A DNA stretch of 64,000 bases, from the IMG/VR virus record IMGVR_UViG_3300030061_003170; one strand, given 5' to 3'. The stretch comes from a virus. The position numbers and the translations under genes are program-made. A model generated the notes under the pieces. It did no database searches. It saw only the letters and a program-made list of their open reading frames with translations, and was not told the origin of the DNA. Below are positions 52,463-55,136 of this stretch, piece after piece; position 1 is the stretch's first letter, and every line of letters starts with the position of its first letter.

Positions 52463-53050
52463 TCAAAAGTCGGCGAATAGTTCATATCCGTGTAGACGAA
52501 GAATAAACTTACCAGCGGTATACGTATCATTAGTTGATCCAGATGCACAAAGATAAATGTATTTGCCATCAATATCAGCAGAAATATCATCGTTTACTGC
52601 AATATCACCAGCAGCAGTATAATTTTCATTAGCCAATAGAACTACTGGGTTGGTTGCCTGTGCCATGCTCATTGATGCACTAAGAACATTATCAGCGTAC
52701 AATACTCCGATTCTTGTTTCCCCACCTGCAGGTGGCTCAACACAAACTAGTTCTGCTTGAGCAAGAATACCCTGAGCAGGTGCAACTAGCATAATTGATG
52801 AACTAAGTGAACCAGAACCAATAACAGTACTACCACCAGCATTCTCAGCGCCAACACCAGCAAAAGAGTTAATCGCTCTCAAAGATGTTCCTAAATCAAT
52901 CTGAATATCAGTTGTCATAAGTGAACCATCTCTTAATTCTGTTTGTGAGGCAATAGCATCTACAATACCAGGCTGTGCTGTTGATGTCGAATTTTGTCCA
53001 AATTGATTTAAGTTAGCCAAACGGCCTCTTCCTAATCTTCTACTTCCCAT
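52463..53050 (-). CDS. Putative capsid-associated/decoration protein
   Basis: Directly downstream of MCP; beta-rich, ends TYTAGKFILRLHGY. Confidence 0.55.
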   Translation of the reverse strand: MGSRRLGRGRLANLNQFGQNSTSTAQPGIVDAIASQTELRDGSLMTTDIQIDLGTSLRAINSFAGVGAENAGGSTVIGSGSLSSSIMLVAPAQGILAQAELVCVEPPAGGETRIGVLYADNVLSASMSMAQATNPVVLLANENYTAAGDIAVNDDISADIDGKYIYLCASGSTNDTYTAGKFILRLHGYELFADF

Positions 53051-53182
53051 TTTATTTTCTCCTTATAAATTAAAATATTATTGCAATAACTTGTCTCTAA
53101 TCAATGAATCACACCAGCGGCCTCGATGTAATTCTTTCTAGGGACAGCCGCCCCGCCCCAAGGAGAATAAATCCAAGTTGCT
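53051..53182 (-). ncRNA. Structured late leader RNA (kissing hairpins plus anti-SD)
   Basis: Two stem-loops with complementary loops, closing helix, and a segment complementary to the downstream SD. Confidence 0.6.
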
Positions 53183-53183
53183 T

Positions 53184-53191
53184 TAAATAGT
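53184..53191 (-). promoter_or_regulatory. Candidate late promoter ACTATTTA (representative; also 6384, 19333, 19959, 41360, 43733, 46701, 52080, 52389, 56444, 57841, 60086)
   Basis: Recurs just upstream of structural/late genes, often right after terminators. Confidence 0.7.
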
Positions 53192-53199
53192 TCTCAGAT

Positions 53200-53235
53200 A
53201 AAGAAAAACCCCCAATCGCAAAAAGCGATCAGGGG
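53200..53235 (-). terminator. Intrinsic terminator after major capsid gene
   Basis: CCCCTGATCGC-TTTTT-GCGATTGGGG then TTTTTCTTT. Confidence 0.8.
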
Positions 53236-53264
53236 CCGTTCAGGAAGAACTAACTAATCAAAGA

Positions 53265-55136
53265 TTAGGCGTATTCTTCACCATTTAGTCCACGTACAAC
53301 AACAAGACCGTACATATCTGGACGAACCATCTTCTTGGCATAACGAGTCATCACACCCTTTCTAGGTACGAAGTCCTCTGGCCCAAAGATGGTTGGGGTT
53401 GTCTGGAGAGGCACGTAAGGTGCATAGACATAACCACTTTCAAGGAAAGAAGAACCTCTACGACCAACAAGAACAATCTGTCTTGGGAAGTAAGGGTCAA
53501 CAATTACGTCAAACTTACGGCTCAAAGAACCAACGTTAACAGCACCAATGTCGCCTTTGTCAGCATCAGCAGTAACATTCGCACGGAATCCAGCAGTGAA
53601 TTCAAGAATGTTTGCTACTTCAGGAGAAACAACTACGAAGTTAGCACCACCACGAAGGGTCTTTCTGTGGATTGCAGCAGACACATCATTGATGGTTTCA
53701 ATGAGAGTCTCGTACCATTCAGAAACAGTTCCAGTGAAGTCAGGAGCCGCTTTGTTGGCACCAATCTCAGCACCAGTGGTACGATCAACAAAGAGACCTG
53801 GAGAGCGAGACCAGTAGTAAGTAGCAGCAGTTGCGCCACGAATAAGGTCAGCAAGGATCTCACGATCAATTTCAAGAGCAATTTGCTCAGAAAGGATAGA
53901 AGTCAATTCAACCTCAGCATCCAAGTTGTGGTAAGCATTCAAGTCTTGTCCCAATTCTGGGGTCCACTTGGCCTTCAACTTCTTGGTTTGCGCTGTGATT
54001 GCAGTGCTGTCTACCTTGATGTCGATCTCAGGGATGTTCTCAGTGTTCTCAAGAAGCATTGTGTAAGTATCAATAACACCAGTTCCTGCACCATCAGTAG
54101 CGGTATCAGCAGCAGGGTACTTAAACTTAGCAGCAGCAAGGATACCAGCGGCGCCAGCAGCCTGTTGAGTAGTAAGAGTTTGAGTTGCAGATGTACCACC
54201 AGCAGTTGTATCAAGAACCAATACAAGTCTTACAGAGGCAACACTTAGTGATGATTCAGTAGCAGTTCTACGCTTAGTTAGGCGACGGATGGATCGAAGT
54301 TCAGAAGCACCAGTAGCAATTGAAATTGTGGCGAAGTTGTTTAATACAGCAGCCAAAGAGTTAGCAGAACCAACAACAGTTGCATCAATTACATCAGGCA
54401 AGTTGAATGCACCCATGTTCTCAAAATCAGGATTAGTACACTTACTCTCAGCAATATCCATAACAATACAAGATGCATTGCTAGTAATAGACAAGAGGTC
54501 TGGATCATAATCAATTAGTTTTTTCTGAGCATCAGGAACTGCACCGTTCAATGTAAAAACAGAGGCCAAAGCACCTTGAGCATTGTTTTGGAAGTCAACG
54601 GTTCCATTTGCTTCACTTTCTACTGAAGCATAAGCATAACCTGGCATTCCACGAGGACCAGACTGATCGCCACCAAGACTATCAGTGATACTTACGCCAT
54701 CAATGATTCCAGCACCAACCTTGTCGGTACCATAGAGTGATTTTTCATCTTGGTTACCAAGACGTTGAGTCTGAGTTGTTGATCCAATATCAGCAGAATA
54801 CACAAAGTCAAGGAAGAAGATCAGACCAGATGGCAATGACATCGGCTGAACGCTTACAAGATCGTTAGCAATAAGTCCGGCGAATACACGACGAACGATT
54901 GGGAAAGCAACAGCAGCAAAGCCATCAACATTTGCCAGACCGGCACCCATACCAGAAGCCTCACGAAGAAGTTCTTTTGCTTGGTTTTCCAAGAGACGAG
55001 CCATGTTGTTTTTGTCATGCTCGTTTTGAAGGCCTTCAAGTAAACCAGTAGATTCCCACTTAGAAAGAAGAGCGGCGCCTTCCTGCTTCATGTCACGGTT
55101 TACAATGCCTTCGGTCAATTTTTCAATAATAGACAT
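53265..55136 (-). CDS. Major capsid protein (T4 gp23-like)
   Basis: PIVRR, VSVQPM..PSGLIF, KLKAKWTPELGQDL..H.LDAE.EL, EIDREI, YAPYVPL, GVMTRYA. Confidence 0.97.
   Translation of the reverse strand: MSIIEKLTEGIVNRDMKQEGAALLSKWESTGLLEGLQNEHDKNNMARLLENQAKELLREASGMGAGLANVDGFAAVAFPIVRRVFAGLIANDLVSVQPMSLPSGLIFFLDFVYSADIGSTTQTQRLGNQDEKSLYGTDKVGAGIIDGVSITDSLGGDQSGPRGMPGYAYASVESEANGTVDFQNNAQGALASVFTLNGAVPDAQKKLIDYDPDLLSITSNASCIVMDIAESKCTNPDFENMGAFNLPDVIDATVVGSANSLAAVLNNFATISIATGASELRSIRRLTKRRTATESSLSVASVRLVLVLDTTAGGTSATQTLTTQQAAGAAGILAAAKFKYPAADTATDGAGTGVIDTYTMLLENTENIPEIDIKVDSTAITAQTKKLKAKWTPELGQDLNAYHNLDAEVELTSILSEQIALEIDREILADLIRGATAATYYWSRSPGLFVDRTTGAEIGANKAAPDFTGTVSEWYETLIETINDVSAAIHRKTLRGGANFVVVSPEVANILEFTAGFRANVTADADKGDIGAVNVGSLSRKFDVIVDPYFPRQIVLVGRRGSSFLESGYVYAPYVPLQTTPTIFGPEDFVPRKGVMTRYAKKMVRPDMYGLVVVRGLNGEEYA

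What the first reader, a model, noticed from the sequence alone, without database searches (positions are those of the whole stretch)
53051..53191. Kissing-loop RNA with an anti-Shine-Dalgarno switch next to the major capsid gene
Seen: after the MCP terminator, a late motif (53184-53191) opens an unusually long, GC-rich leader of about 130 nt. On the minus strand it contains hairpin A, CUUGGGGC-[GGGGCGGCU]-GUCCCUAG (53162-53138), and hairpin B, GAAUUACAUC-[GAGGCCGCU]-GGUGUGAUUC (53134-53106, 10 bp with G-U pairs). The two 9-nt loops are complementary (GCGGCU/GGCCGC). A closing helix AACUUG/CAAGUU makes a multi-way junction. The leader's 5' segment UUUAUUCUCCUU (53171-53160) is also complementary to the SD/spacer AAGGAGAA(AA)UAAA (53064-53051) of the next gene, and that pairing competes with hairpin A and the closing helix. 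Inference: a two-state translational switch (protein- or ligand-responsive) setting the stoichiometry of a capsid-associated protein. Alternatively, an RNA whose loops pair intermolecularly, as in phi29 pRNA. I do not recognise it as a known family.
Basis: partly seen in the sequence, partly recalled or inferred. Interest (0 to 1): 0.85.

Follow-up and report, generated by a model that had tools for sequence, protein, structure and literature searches.

The report
Conserved kissing-loop leader RNA in phages
The long leader in front of the small gene after the major capsid gene is a real, conserved folded RNA found in at least 95 distinct versions in uncultured marine T4-like phages; its two hairpin loops pair with each other, it carries a built-in complement of the gene's ribosome-binding site, and it matches no catalogued RNA family.

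Summary
The 133-nt leader (minus strand, 53183-53051) folds into a three-way junction. It has a long closing helix P1 (P1a plus P1b) and hairpins P2 and P3, whose loops are complementary over 6 nt.

I collected 93 distinct relatives from IMG/VR marine phage contigs, plus two divergent ones. In 86 of 90 testable cases the element lies just after a gp23-type capsid gene, and in all cases it precedes a small gene whose product begins MG(N/S/K)RR.G.KRL.

- **Pairing:** 97% of base-pair cells pair, and 14 of 26 pairs show compensatory double changes (0 of 500 shuffles match).
- **Kissing loops:** the two central loop-loop pairs occur as CA/UG, GG/CC, CC/GG and CG/CG. They are complementary in every sequence, with several independent switches.
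- **Strand:** G-U outnumbers A-C 146 to 2, so the fold lies on the sense RNA.
- **Anti-SD:** CUCC(U)U next to P2 is invariant and always complements the Shine-Dalgarno. In nearest-neighbour folding this pairing is the minimum-energy state in 46 of 93 leaders. It excludes P1.

Rfam 15 has no match, and I found no paper describing it.

It is most likely a cis-acting translational regulator of a jelly-roll capsid cement-like protein. The trigger is unknown, and switching itself is inferred, not shown.

The parts
53265..55136 (-). Upstream gene: gp23-type major capsid protein, 623 aa
   Evidence: Pfam PF07068 E 4e-75; PHROG 138. 86 of 90 related leaders have this gene's C-terminus just upstream.
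53207..53237 (-). Intrinsic terminator after the capsid gene
   Evidence: 13-bp G+C-rich stem followed by a U run. The weak NsiR1 hit is this hairpin.
53184..53191 (-). Promoter-like late motif ACTATTTA. It places the inferred transcript start at or just before P1a.
   Evidence: 14 copies in the window, all on the minus strand, against 2.9 expected. Conserved as CTA(N)TTA 3-9 nt before P1a in all relatives. The transcript start itself is inferred, not measured.
53174..53178 (-). P1a 5' strand, ACUUG. Pairs with 53093-53089.
   Evidence: 98.5% of cells paired across 93 sequences, including one G-C to A-U double change.
53165..53171 (-). P1b 5' strand, UUUAUUC. Pairs with 53102-53096 and overlaps the anti-SD by 3 nt.
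   Evidence: fold. In the 16 type-2 relatives the equivalent 8-bp helix covaries strongly (UA/GC/UG; UA/CG; CG/GC/UA).
53160..53167 (-). Anti-Shine-Dalgarno UUCUCCUU, immediately 5' of P2
   Evidence: CUCCUU is invariant in the 93 relatives (CCUCCU in two divergent ones). It forms 6-10 bp with the SD in 94 of 94 leaders. This pairing is the minimum-energy state in 46 of 93.
53141..53159 (-).
   Evidence: 97.1% paired; 4 of 5 pairs show double changes.
53135..53140 (-). Junction J2/3, UAGAAA
   Evidence: Conserved in type-1 leaders. It is replaced by UUGAAG or CUG in other subtypes.
53106..53134 (-).
   Evidence: 97.2% paired; 5 of 7 counted pairs show double changes.
53146..53151 (-). L2 kissing segment GCGGCU. 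Pairs with 53122-53117 (GGCCGC).
   Evidence: At least 5 of 6 loop-loop pairs form in 93 of 93 sequences. The central dinucleotide occurs as CA/UG 57, GG/CC 18, CC/GG 16, CG/CG 2. The same holds in a scan that left the loops unconstrained. There are at least 10 class changes on a tree built without the loop columns.
53117..53122 (-). L3 kissing segment GGCCGC
   Evidence: As above.
53089..53102 (-). P1 3' strand: P1b 53102-53096 and P1a 53093-53089
53077..53090 (-). Hairpin P4, GUUAU-UGCA-AUAAU. Its first two bases are also the last two of the P1a 3' strand.
   Evidence: Conserved in type-1 leaders. The C/U variation at the last base keeps the pair with G. Variants GUUGU/AUAAC, GGUU-GCGU-AACC, GGUUA-ACGU-UAACC and GGUU-ACGU-AACC keep the hairpin. 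P4 is absent in type 2.
53057..53064 (-). Shine-Dalgarno AAGGAGAA
   Evidence: Sequence; pairing with the anti-SD.
52463..53050 (-). Regulated gene: 195-aa protein with a basic N-terminus (MGSRRLGRGRL) and a jelly-roll body, probably a capsid cement or decoration protein
   Evidence: No Pfam or PHROG match. 27 unnamed homologues. AlphaFold model with pLDDT 79. The best fold matches are phage cement proteins 7eel_H, 8h89_J and 7dou_4 at Z 7.3-7.4, which is modest.

Best explanation
This is a previously uncatalogued, conserved structured 5' leader of the late mRNA for a small capsid cement-like protein in a clade of uncultured marine T4-like phages.

**Shown.** The RNA forms a three-way junction. 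A roughly 13-bp closing helix P1 sits at the inferred 5' end of the transcript. It carries two hairpins, P2 and P3, whose loops form a 5-6 bp Watson-Crick kissing interaction. In most members there is also a short hairpin P4.

**Inferred.** The leader sets how much protein is made by partitioning between two mutually exclusive folds.
- In one fold, P1 forms. It ties up the first bases of the invariant UUCUCCUU segment and leaves the Shine-Dalgarno free.
- In the other fold, P1 is open, P4 forms fully, and UUCUCCUU pairs with AAGGAGAA. This hides the ribosome-binding site inside a four-way junction that still contains P2 and P3.

The kissing-loop module is the conserved recognition or stabilising element that biases this equilibrium. 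What acts on it is unknown. My preferred guess is a protein, possibly the arginine-rich N-terminus of the gene's own product, which would couple synthesis to capsid assembly. A small-molecule ligand seems less likely.
For: **Structure**
- MFE fold, z = -2.3.
- A covariance model built on 10 relatives found 93 distinct sequences at 70-151 bits, and one copy per locus.
- 97% of cells paired, 14 of 26 pairs with double changes, 0 of 500 shuffles as good, and slid controls at 29-48%.
- Loop-loop pairs are complementary in 93 of 93 sequences, with four dinucleotide classes. The same holds when the loops were left free in the search.
- At least 10 class switches appear on a loop-free leader tree, and about 4-5 are forced by well-supported branches.
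- Type-2 P1b covaries.
- G-U cells outnumber A-C cells 146 to 2, which fixes the strand.

**Context**
- The element lies just after the gp23 gene and its terminator in 86 of 90 cases.
- It is always followed within about 30-45 nt by an SD and an MG.RR.G..RL gene.
- In L320 and L353 it precedes the second of two tandem paralogues. It therefore tracks the small gene, not the capsid gene.
- There is no terminator between the motif and the gene.
- The leader is 133 nt, against 17-35 nt for other genes with the same promoter motif.

**Two-state design**
- The anti-SD is invariant and pairs 6-10 bp with the SD, mean -9.8 against -5.5 kcal/mol for shuffled controls.
- Forcing anti-SD:SD pairing costs on average only 1.2 kcal/mol. 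It is the MFE in 46 of 93 leaders, with a mean ensemble probability of 0.52.
- P1b overlaps the anti-SD by 3 nt, and P4 overlaps P1a by 2 nt. This overlap is kept in divergent variants with different P4 sequences.
- L381 and L389 carry UCCUCCU together with AGGAGGA.

**Precedent.** T4 genes e, soc, 49 and I-TevI hide their SD or AUG in RNA helices (PMC3014915).
Against: - No experiment or RNA-seq was available. The transcript start, the fold in vivo and any effect on translation are therefore inferred.
- The anti-SD:SD helix has no convincing covariation. Four leaders with UCCUCCUU keep AGGAGA, a C-A mismatch, while only two show the compensated C-G.
- An invariant CU-rich junction could be conserved for tertiary structure and be SD-complementary only as a by-product.
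- Nearest-neighbour energies ignore the kissing interaction and model large multiloops poorly. The near-equal energies are therefore approximate.
- P1 and anti-SD:SD could in principle coexist as a pseudoknot if only 3 bp of P1b open. That would make a constitutive structure rather than a switch.
- Type-2 leaders favour P1 strongly, with an anti-SD:SD probability of about 0.02 in L197.
- A paralogue of the gene (L320) and many homologues in related phages do without this leader.
Confidence: 0.55

Rival explanations
1. A constitutive structural leader with no switching. The 5'-terminal P1 and the compact kissing-loop junction protect the late mRNA from 5'-end-dependent decay or endonucleases, or simply throttle translation to a fixed level. 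The SD complement is either part of a single pseudoknotted fold or incidental.
For: - P1a begins 3-9 nt after the promoter motif, at the inferred 5' end.
- P1 and the anti-SD:SD helix overlap by only 3 nt, so a pseudoknot holding both is conceivable.
- There is no covariation for anti-SD:SD.
- Type-2 leaders sit almost entirely in the P1 state in silico.
- RNA structure is known to protect T4 SD sequences from RegB cleavage (PMC3014915).
Against: - A simple 5' hairpin would suffice for protection. The invariant loops, the kissing pairs and the preserved P1a/P4 overlap suggest more than stability.
- The alternative fold is near-isoenergetic in most type-1 leaders.
Confidence: 0.22
2. A metabolite- or ion-sensing riboswitch of a new class. 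It would have a purine-riboswitch-like tuning-fork aptamer (P1, P2, P3 with L2-L3 contact) and an SD-sequestering expression platform, as in the adenine add riboswitch.
For: - Same overall architecture: a three-way junction, loop-loop contact and an anti-SD adjoining P1.
- The junction is conserved within type 1: UCCUU, AGAAA, AUU.
Against: - Junction sequences are not conserved between subtypes. J2/3 is UAGAAA, UUGAAG or CUG, and J3/1 is AUU, GAAGA or AAC, while the loops and CUCCUU stay fixed.
- The regulated gene is a late structural gene, not a metabolic or transport gene.
- There is no Rfam riboswitch match. FMN scores only 14 bits, E = 1, and Purine is absent at E up to 10.
- The motif is absent from 185,579 species' genomes for the type-1 pattern.
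Confidence: 0.07
3. An RNA that oligomerises through intermolecular L2-L3 pairing (and perhaps the palindromic P4), as phi29 pRNA does. It would act in assembly or in bringing transcripts together, rather than only in cis.
For: - L2-L3 complementarity within one sequence equally allows head-to-tail pairing between molecules.
- A 6-bp kiss between two hairpins of about 8 and 10 bp joined by 5-8 nt may be strained in cis. This is a geometric argument and was not computed.
- P4 is a perfect palindrome including its loop in most variants.
Against: - It is an mRNA leader, with an SD and gene 30-45 nt downstream and no terminator between.
- There is no pRNA model match.
- T4-type packaging motors are not known to use an RNA (established knowledge).
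- The conserved anti-SD is unexplained by this model.
Confidence: 0.06
4. A self-cleaving ribozyme or RNase processing site that trims the 5' end of the cement-gene mRNA.
For: The three-way junction with interacting loops resembles the hammerhead layout. J2/3 contains GAAA.
Against: - The hammerhead core (CUGANGA, GAA, NUH) is not present in the junctions.
- No ribozyme family matches, even at E up to 10.
- Junction sequences vary between subtypes.
Confidence: 0.03

Closest known systems
Purine riboswitch aptamer, especially the translational adenine (add) riboswitch of Vibrio vulnificus (Rfam RF00167; from my own knowledge)
   Same: A three-way junction with a closing P1 and two side-by-side hairpins whose loops contact each other. 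The Shine-Dalgarno is sequestered by an alternative pairing that competes with P1.
   Different: - No covariance-model match.
- The loops form 5-6 Watson-Crick pairs rather than two G-C pairs plus base quadruples.
- Junction sequences differ and vary between subtypes.
- The gene is a phage late structural gene, and no ligand is known.
SD-occluding helices of T4 genes e, soc, 49 and I-TevI (PMC3014915)
   Same: T4-type phage genes, including a capsid decoration gene (soc), whose SD or AUG is hidden in an RNA helix formed with an upstream segment.
   Different: In T4 the upstream arm is present only in longer early transcripts, and late transcripts start inside the hairpin. Here the anti-SD lies downstream of the late-promoter motif and is embedded in a covarying kissing-loop junction. 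Relief must therefore come from refolding, not from promoter choice.
phi29-family prohead RNA (pRNA, Rfam RF00044; PMC4201828)
   Same: A phage RNA with a three-way junction and two loops that are Watson-Crick complementary and covary.
   Different: pRNA is a free-standing roughly 120-174 nt transcript. Its 4-nt loops pair between molecules to ring the portal of a phi29-type motor. This RNA is an mRNA leader in a T4-like phage, has 6-nt complementarity and has no model match.
Kissing loops in large riboswitches: lysine L2-L3 and cobalamin L5-L13 (from my own knowledge)
   Same: Intramolecular kissing loops of about 6 bp that organise a junction (lysine) or gate the ribosome-binding site (cobalamin).
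   Different: Here neither loop contains the SD. The junction order and sequences are unrelated, and there are no Rfam matches.
Autogenous translational operators of phage genes (T4 gene 32 pseudoknot, gene 43 hairpin, MS2 coat operator; from my own knowledge and PMC3014915)
   Same: A structured element in the leader of a phage gene, through which the amount of free product can set its own translation.
   Different: No binding has been shown here. The operator would be a kissing-loop junction rather than a hairpin or H-type pseudoknot.

Membership tests
Any Rfam 15 family | Covariance-model score at or above the family's gathering threshold | tested here: not met
   0 matches in the whole window and 0 in six related loci. 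At E up to 10 over 52900-53400 there are only chance-level hits, for example FMN at 14 bits against 66 needed.
Purine riboswitch (RF00167) | Model match and a conserved ligand-binding junction (J1/2, J2/3, J3/1) with the specificity pyrimidine in J3/1 | tested here: not met
   Not listed even at E up to 10. The junction sequences here vary between subtypes.
Purine riboswitch (RF00167) | P1-P2-P3 three-way junction with L2-L3 loop-loop contact | tested here: met
   This is a resemblance in architecture only.
Hammerhead ribozyme | Core CUGANGA between stems I and II, GAA between II and III, and a NUH cleavage site | tested here: not met
   The junctions read UCCUU, UAGAAA and AUU. There is no hammerhead model hit.
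phi29-type pRNA (RF00044) | Free-standing transcript with its own end, not an mRNA leader | tested here: not met
   The SD and ATG follow within about 30-45 nt, with no terminator-like site between 53190 and 53051. There is no model hit.
phi29-type pRNA (RF00044) | Loop-loop pairing is intermolecular | not testable with these tools
   Covariation cannot tell cis from trans pairing.
SD-sequestering cis-regulatory leader (generic class) | A conserved segment complementary to the gene's own Shine-Dalgarno | tested here: met
   6-10 bp in 94 of 94 leaders, mean -9.8 kcal/mol against -5.5 for shuffled controls.
SD-sequestering cis-regulatory leader (generic class) | Two mutually exclusive folds of comparable stability | tested here: met
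   Forced anti-SD:SD costs a mean of 1.2 kcal/mol and is the MFE in 46 of 93 leaders. This is in silico only.
SD-sequestering cis-regulatory leader (generic class) | Covariation in the anti-SD:SD helix | tested here: inconclusive
   U-A in most leaders, U-G in 6, C-A in 4, C-G in 2.
SD-sequestering cis-regulatory leader (generic class) | A measurable effect on translation | not testable with these tools
Phage jelly-roll capsid cement/decoration proteins (the downstream gene) | Jelly-roll fold matching solved cement proteins | tested here: inconclusive
   The top three of 48,161 chains are cement proteins of phages Pam1, GP4 and KHP40, but at Z of only 7.3-7.4. Foldseek found no hit at E <= 0.001.

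The most novel reading that the evidence does not exclude
The kissing-loop junction is a sensor that a protein reads. The most interesting candidate is the arginine-rich N-terminal arm of the cement-like protein it precedes. Free, unassembled protein would then shift the leader between the SD-open and SD-closed folds and tie cement-protein synthesis to capsid assembly. This would be a new class of autogenous riboregulator, widespread in marine T4-like phages. A less likely but also open reading is that the complementary loops and the palindromic P4 make the leader self-associate.
Probability: 0.2. Interest if true: 0.82.

Novelty: new variant of a known kind. Interest (0 to 1): 0.7.

Why it matters
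- **Rare quality of evidence.** Structured cis-regulatory RNAs in phage late operons are rare and mostly known from T4 itself. This one has textbook-quality covariation, including a loop-loop pseudoknot that switches partner bases together at least four times.
- **Widespread.** It is common in an abundant, uncultured marine phage group.
- **Testable biology.** It sits where the stoichiometry of a capsid accessory protein relative to the major capsid protein must be set. It gives a concrete, testable example of post-transcriptional control of virion stoichiometry.
- **Practical uses.** It offers a compact natural kissing-loop three-way junction for RNA structure work, and a candidate for addition to Rfam.

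Tried and rejected
- **DNA search of named phages.** blastn of the region against 50,697 phage records gave no match. Relatives had to be reached through the capsid protein instead.
- **Small-protein searches.** The search for related loci with the 195-aa protein gave no confirmed relatives. tblastn of it against named phages gave nothing.
- **Pattern scans.** CCTCCT... was mostly chance, but gave two useful divergent members.
- **Genome collection.** One scan with the type-1 pattern gave 0 hits, so there is no host clue.
- **Fold search of the protein.** Foldseek against the PDB gave no hit at E <= 0.001.
- **Hammerhead reading.** Rejected, because the core motifs are absent.
- **Sigma-70 promoter reading.** CAUUGA plus UGCAAUAAU gives TTGATT-16-AATAAT. 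I rejected this as the reason for conservation. About half the relatives have AATAAC, which loses the key last T but keeps the RNA pair with G. Divergent P4 variants keep the hairpin but not the hexamer. Type 2 lacks the block altogether.
- **Opposite-strand ORF.** I considered a plus-strand ORF using AAGGAG as its own SD. There is no start codon at a usable distance and no ORF of 40 aa or more.
- **Leader peptide.** There is no ATG in the leader.
- **Literature.** Three searches and one preprint check found no description of this motif.
Full report
**1. What is in the window**

The window is part of a T4-like phage with 40% G+C. ORF 53265-55136 (minus strand) is a gp23-type major capsid protein (Pfam PF07068, E 4e-75). 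Its nearest cultured relatives are Flavobacterium phage immuto, at about 50% identity over about 60% of the protein, and Rhodothermus phage RM378.

After the capsid gene comes a strong intrinsic terminator (53237-53207). The motif ACTATTTA follows at 53191-53184. A 133-nt leader then runs up to the ATG at 53050 of a 195-aa ORF.

ACTATTTA occurs 14 times in the window, always on the coding strand, against 2.9 expected. Where it precedes a gene, the start codon is normally only 17-35 nt away. It therefore behaves like this phage's late promoter, and this leader is exceptional in length. The leader core has 53% G+C.

**2.

RNAfold returns hairpin A (P2), hairpin B (P3) and the closing helix as the minimum-energy fold, at -37.5 kcal/mol and z = -2.3.

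Two refinements:
- The closing helix continues inward as P1b (53171-53165 with 53102-53096). P1 is therefore about 13 bp long.
- A short hairpin P4 (53090-53077) shares its first two bases with the 3' strand of P1a.

**3. Relatives**

DNA search of named phages found nothing. The capsid protein did pull out 80 IMG/VR loci at 56-66% identity. Ten of them carry the same leader downstream of the capsid gene.

Pattern scans of IMG/VR and a covariance model built from the first ten (R1) brought the set to 93 distinct sequences at 70-151 bits, one per locus. Two more divergent members were also found (L381, L389).

The window has a single copy.

**4. Covariation**

On the 93-sequence alignment A3, the given structure (P1a, P2, P3, three pairs of P4, and six loop-loop pairs) scored as follows:
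- 97.0% of 2351 cells are paired.
- 14 of 26 pairs carry compensatory double changes, in 194 cells.
- The covariation score is 0.314 against 0.149 for shuffles (0 of 500 reach it).
- When the 3' partners are slid by 1-3 columns, only 29-48% of cells pair.

The only 'unpaired' loop-loop cells are the 16 type-2 rows, where an insertion shifts the columns. When loop L3 is anchored on its 3' side instead, all 93 sequences have 5 or 6 of 6 kissing pairs.

The two central kissing pairs occur as CA/UG (57), GG/CC (18), CC/GG (16) and CG/CG (2). L381 and L389 provide a third CG/CG background.

Because my first scan fixed parts of the loops, I repeated it with the loops unconstrained. All 73 type-1 sequences recovered show G-R-G-G-C-N-N-C-U and R-G-N-N-G-C-U with complementary NN.

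On a tree of the leader built without the loop columns, the class changes at least 10 times. Several changes are forced by branches with support of 95 or more, for example L361/L329 (CA) beside L159/L127/L336 (GG), and L167 (CA) beside L362 (CG). The loop-loop pairing is therefore supported by several independent double switches.

In the 16 type-2 leaders, P1b is an 8-bp helix that covaries heavily. In the divergent L175, the P1a pair G-C becomes A-U.

G-U cells outnumber A-C cells 146 to 2 once invariant and misaligned pairs are set aside. The structure therefore belongs to the sense-strand RNA, not to the opposite strand or to DNA.

**5. Subtypes**

- Type 1 (77 sequences, including the window) has J2/3 UAGAAA, J3/1 AUU and hairpin P4.
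- Small sub-branches have UUGAAG with GAAGA or CGUGA junctions.
- Type 2 (16 sequences) has a 3-nt J2/3, a G+C-rich P1b and no P4.

What stays fixed across all of them is the pair of loops, the closing pairs of P3, and CUCC(U)U immediately 5' of P2.

**6. The anti-SD**

UUCUCCUU (53167-53160) is complementary to AAGGAGAA (53064-57).

- In 94 distinct leaders, the 10 nt before P2 form 6-10 bp (mode 8) with the 20 nt before the start codon. The mean is -9.8 kcal/mol against -5.5 for shuffled anti-SD segments.
- Forcing four anti-SD:SD pairs costs on average only 1.2 kcal/mol relative to the unconstrained MFE.
- In 46 of 93 leaders this state is the MFE.
- Its mean ensemble probability is 0.52, and the SD is on average only 41% unpaired.

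In that fold P2, P3 and P4 persist inside a four-way junction closed by the anti-SD:SD helix, while P1 is open.

P1b uses the first three bases of the anti-SD, and P4 uses the last two bases of the P1a 3' strand. P1 on one side, and P4 plus anti-SD:SD on the other, are therefore mutually exclusive in a nested model. The P1a/P4 overlap is retained even where P4 has a different sequence (GGUU-GCGU-AACC in L175, GGUUA-ACGU-UAACC in L381, GGUU-ACGU-AACC in L389).

This is the layout of a riboswitch-type expression platform. Direct covariation for anti-SD:SD is nevertheless weak:
- Most leaders have U-A at the one variable position.
- Six have U-G, with SD GGAGG.
- Four have C-A (UCCUCCUU with AGGAGA).
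- Only L381 and L389 have the compensated C-G, UCCUCCU with AGGAGGA.

An earlier first-reader note on another genome of this scan (e1-5667134) describes what appears to be the same kind of element. It reports UUCCUCCU paired to AGGAGGAA as the closing helix of a four-way junction. I could not see that sequence, so it is a lead and not evidence.

**7. The regulated gene**

The 195-aa product has no Pfam or PHROG match. It has 27 unnamed metagenomic homologues.

Its AlphaFold model (pLDDT 79) is a jelly-roll beta-sandwich behind a flexible basic N-terminus. An exhaustive structural comparison ranks three phage capsid cement proteins first: cyanophage Pam1 7eel_H, Ralstonia phage GP4 8h89_J and H. 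pylori phage KHP40 7dou_4. Their Z of 7.3-7.4 is in the range the tool warns can be a common fold. Foldseek gave no hit at E <= 0.001. 'Capsid cement or decoration protein' is therefore likely but not established.

All leaders precede a gene beginning M(G)(N/S/K)RR(L/I/M)(G/S).(K/R)RL. Of 90 instances with enough upstream DNA, 86 have the capsid gene's C-terminus just upstream.

In L320 and L353 the gene upstream is instead a paralogue of the small protein. That first paralogue has a short, unstructured leader. The RNA therefore belongs to the small gene rather than to the capsid gene.

Homologous genes in other relatives carry different leaders, some of them also structured.

**8. Mechanism**

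Shown: a conserved three-way junction with kissing loops on the sense RNA, in the leader of this gene.

Inferred: the RNA partitions between an SD-open fold (P1 formed) and an SD-closed fold (anti-SD:SD plus P4). The kissing-loop module biases this partition, by itself or when bound by a factor.

I consider a protein effector more likely than a metabolite, for three reasons:
- The junction sequences vary between subtypes, while the loops do not.
- The gene is a late structural gene.
- The motif is absent from cellular genomes for the type-1 pattern.

The product's own arginine-rich N-terminus is an obvious candidate, but nothing here tests it.

Rivals:
- A constitutive stabilising or throttling structure, possibly a pseudoknot holding both P1 and anti-SD:SD.
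- A new riboswitch.
- A self-associating RNA, since the loops could pair in trans and P4 is a perfect palindrome in most variants.
- A ribozyme, although no core motifs and no model hits support this.

**9. Comparison with known systems**

Rfam 15 gives nothing at gathering thresholds for the window or for six relatives. It gives nothing meaningful at E up to 10.

- **Architecture.** The closest analogue is the purine-riboswitch tuning fork. The adenine add switch also competes P1 against SD sequestration. Membership fails on the model score and on the junction.
- **Biological precedent.** T4 hides the SD of e, soc, 49 and I-TevI in helices (PMC3014915). There, relief comes from starting late transcripts inside the hairpin. 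Here the anti-SD lies inside the late transcript.
- **phi29 pRNA.** It shares a three-way junction and covarying complementary loops (PMC4201828), but it is a free RNA acting in trans.

Literature searches found no description of this motif.

**10. Verdict**

This is a genuine, well-supported new RNA family of a known general kind, a structured translational leader. It has an unusually clean kissing-loop pseudoknot and a plausible two-state design. The regulatory logic and the trigger remain to be shown.

Noticed in passing
L320:4474-5916 and L353 (related loci): Two tandem paralogues of the small cement-like gene follow the capsid gene. Only the second carries the kissing-loop leader. The first has a short plain leader.
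   Followed up: partly
L017, L023, L042, L038, L039, L048, L069 (region just downstream of the capsid gene): Homologues of the small gene (MGTKRVGLAR...) in other relatives have different leaders with their own strong hairpins, ending in GAUUAUAAA(A/U)GGAGGGUUUU. These may be one or two further leader families for the same gene.
   Followed up: no
window 53077-53090 (minus); L381, L389, L175: P4 is a perfect palindrome including its 4-nt loop in most variants (UUAUUGCAAUAA, GGUUAACGUUAACC, GGUUACGUAACC). This would also suit RNA dimerisation or a dimeric DNA-binding protein.
   Followed up: partly
window 53077-53104 (minus): There is a sigma-70-like promoter match, TTGATT-16-AATAAT with an upstream TG, inside the leader. 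It lies downstream of the anti-SD, so a transcript from it would lack the anti-SD. It is not conserved as a promoter in relatives.
   Followed up: partly
window, 14 sites including 60093-60086, 56451-56444, 52396-52389, 52087-52080, 46708-46701: ACTATTTA occurs 14 times, all on the minus strand and mostly 17-35 nt before structural-gene starts. It is probably this phage's late-promoter consensus and differs from T4's TATAAATA.
   Followed up: partly
window 53265-55136 (minus): The capsid protein has 623 aa. The Pfam Gp23 match covers mainly residues 329-609, so the protein carries a large extra N-terminal or insertion region compared with T4 gp23.
   Followed up: no
window 53146-53154 and 53116-53124 (minus): Both kissing loops begin with an SD-like GAGG/GGGG that is left unpaired or only partly paired by the kiss. 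I did not explore whether this matters, for example as a ribosome standby or decoy site.
   Followed up: no
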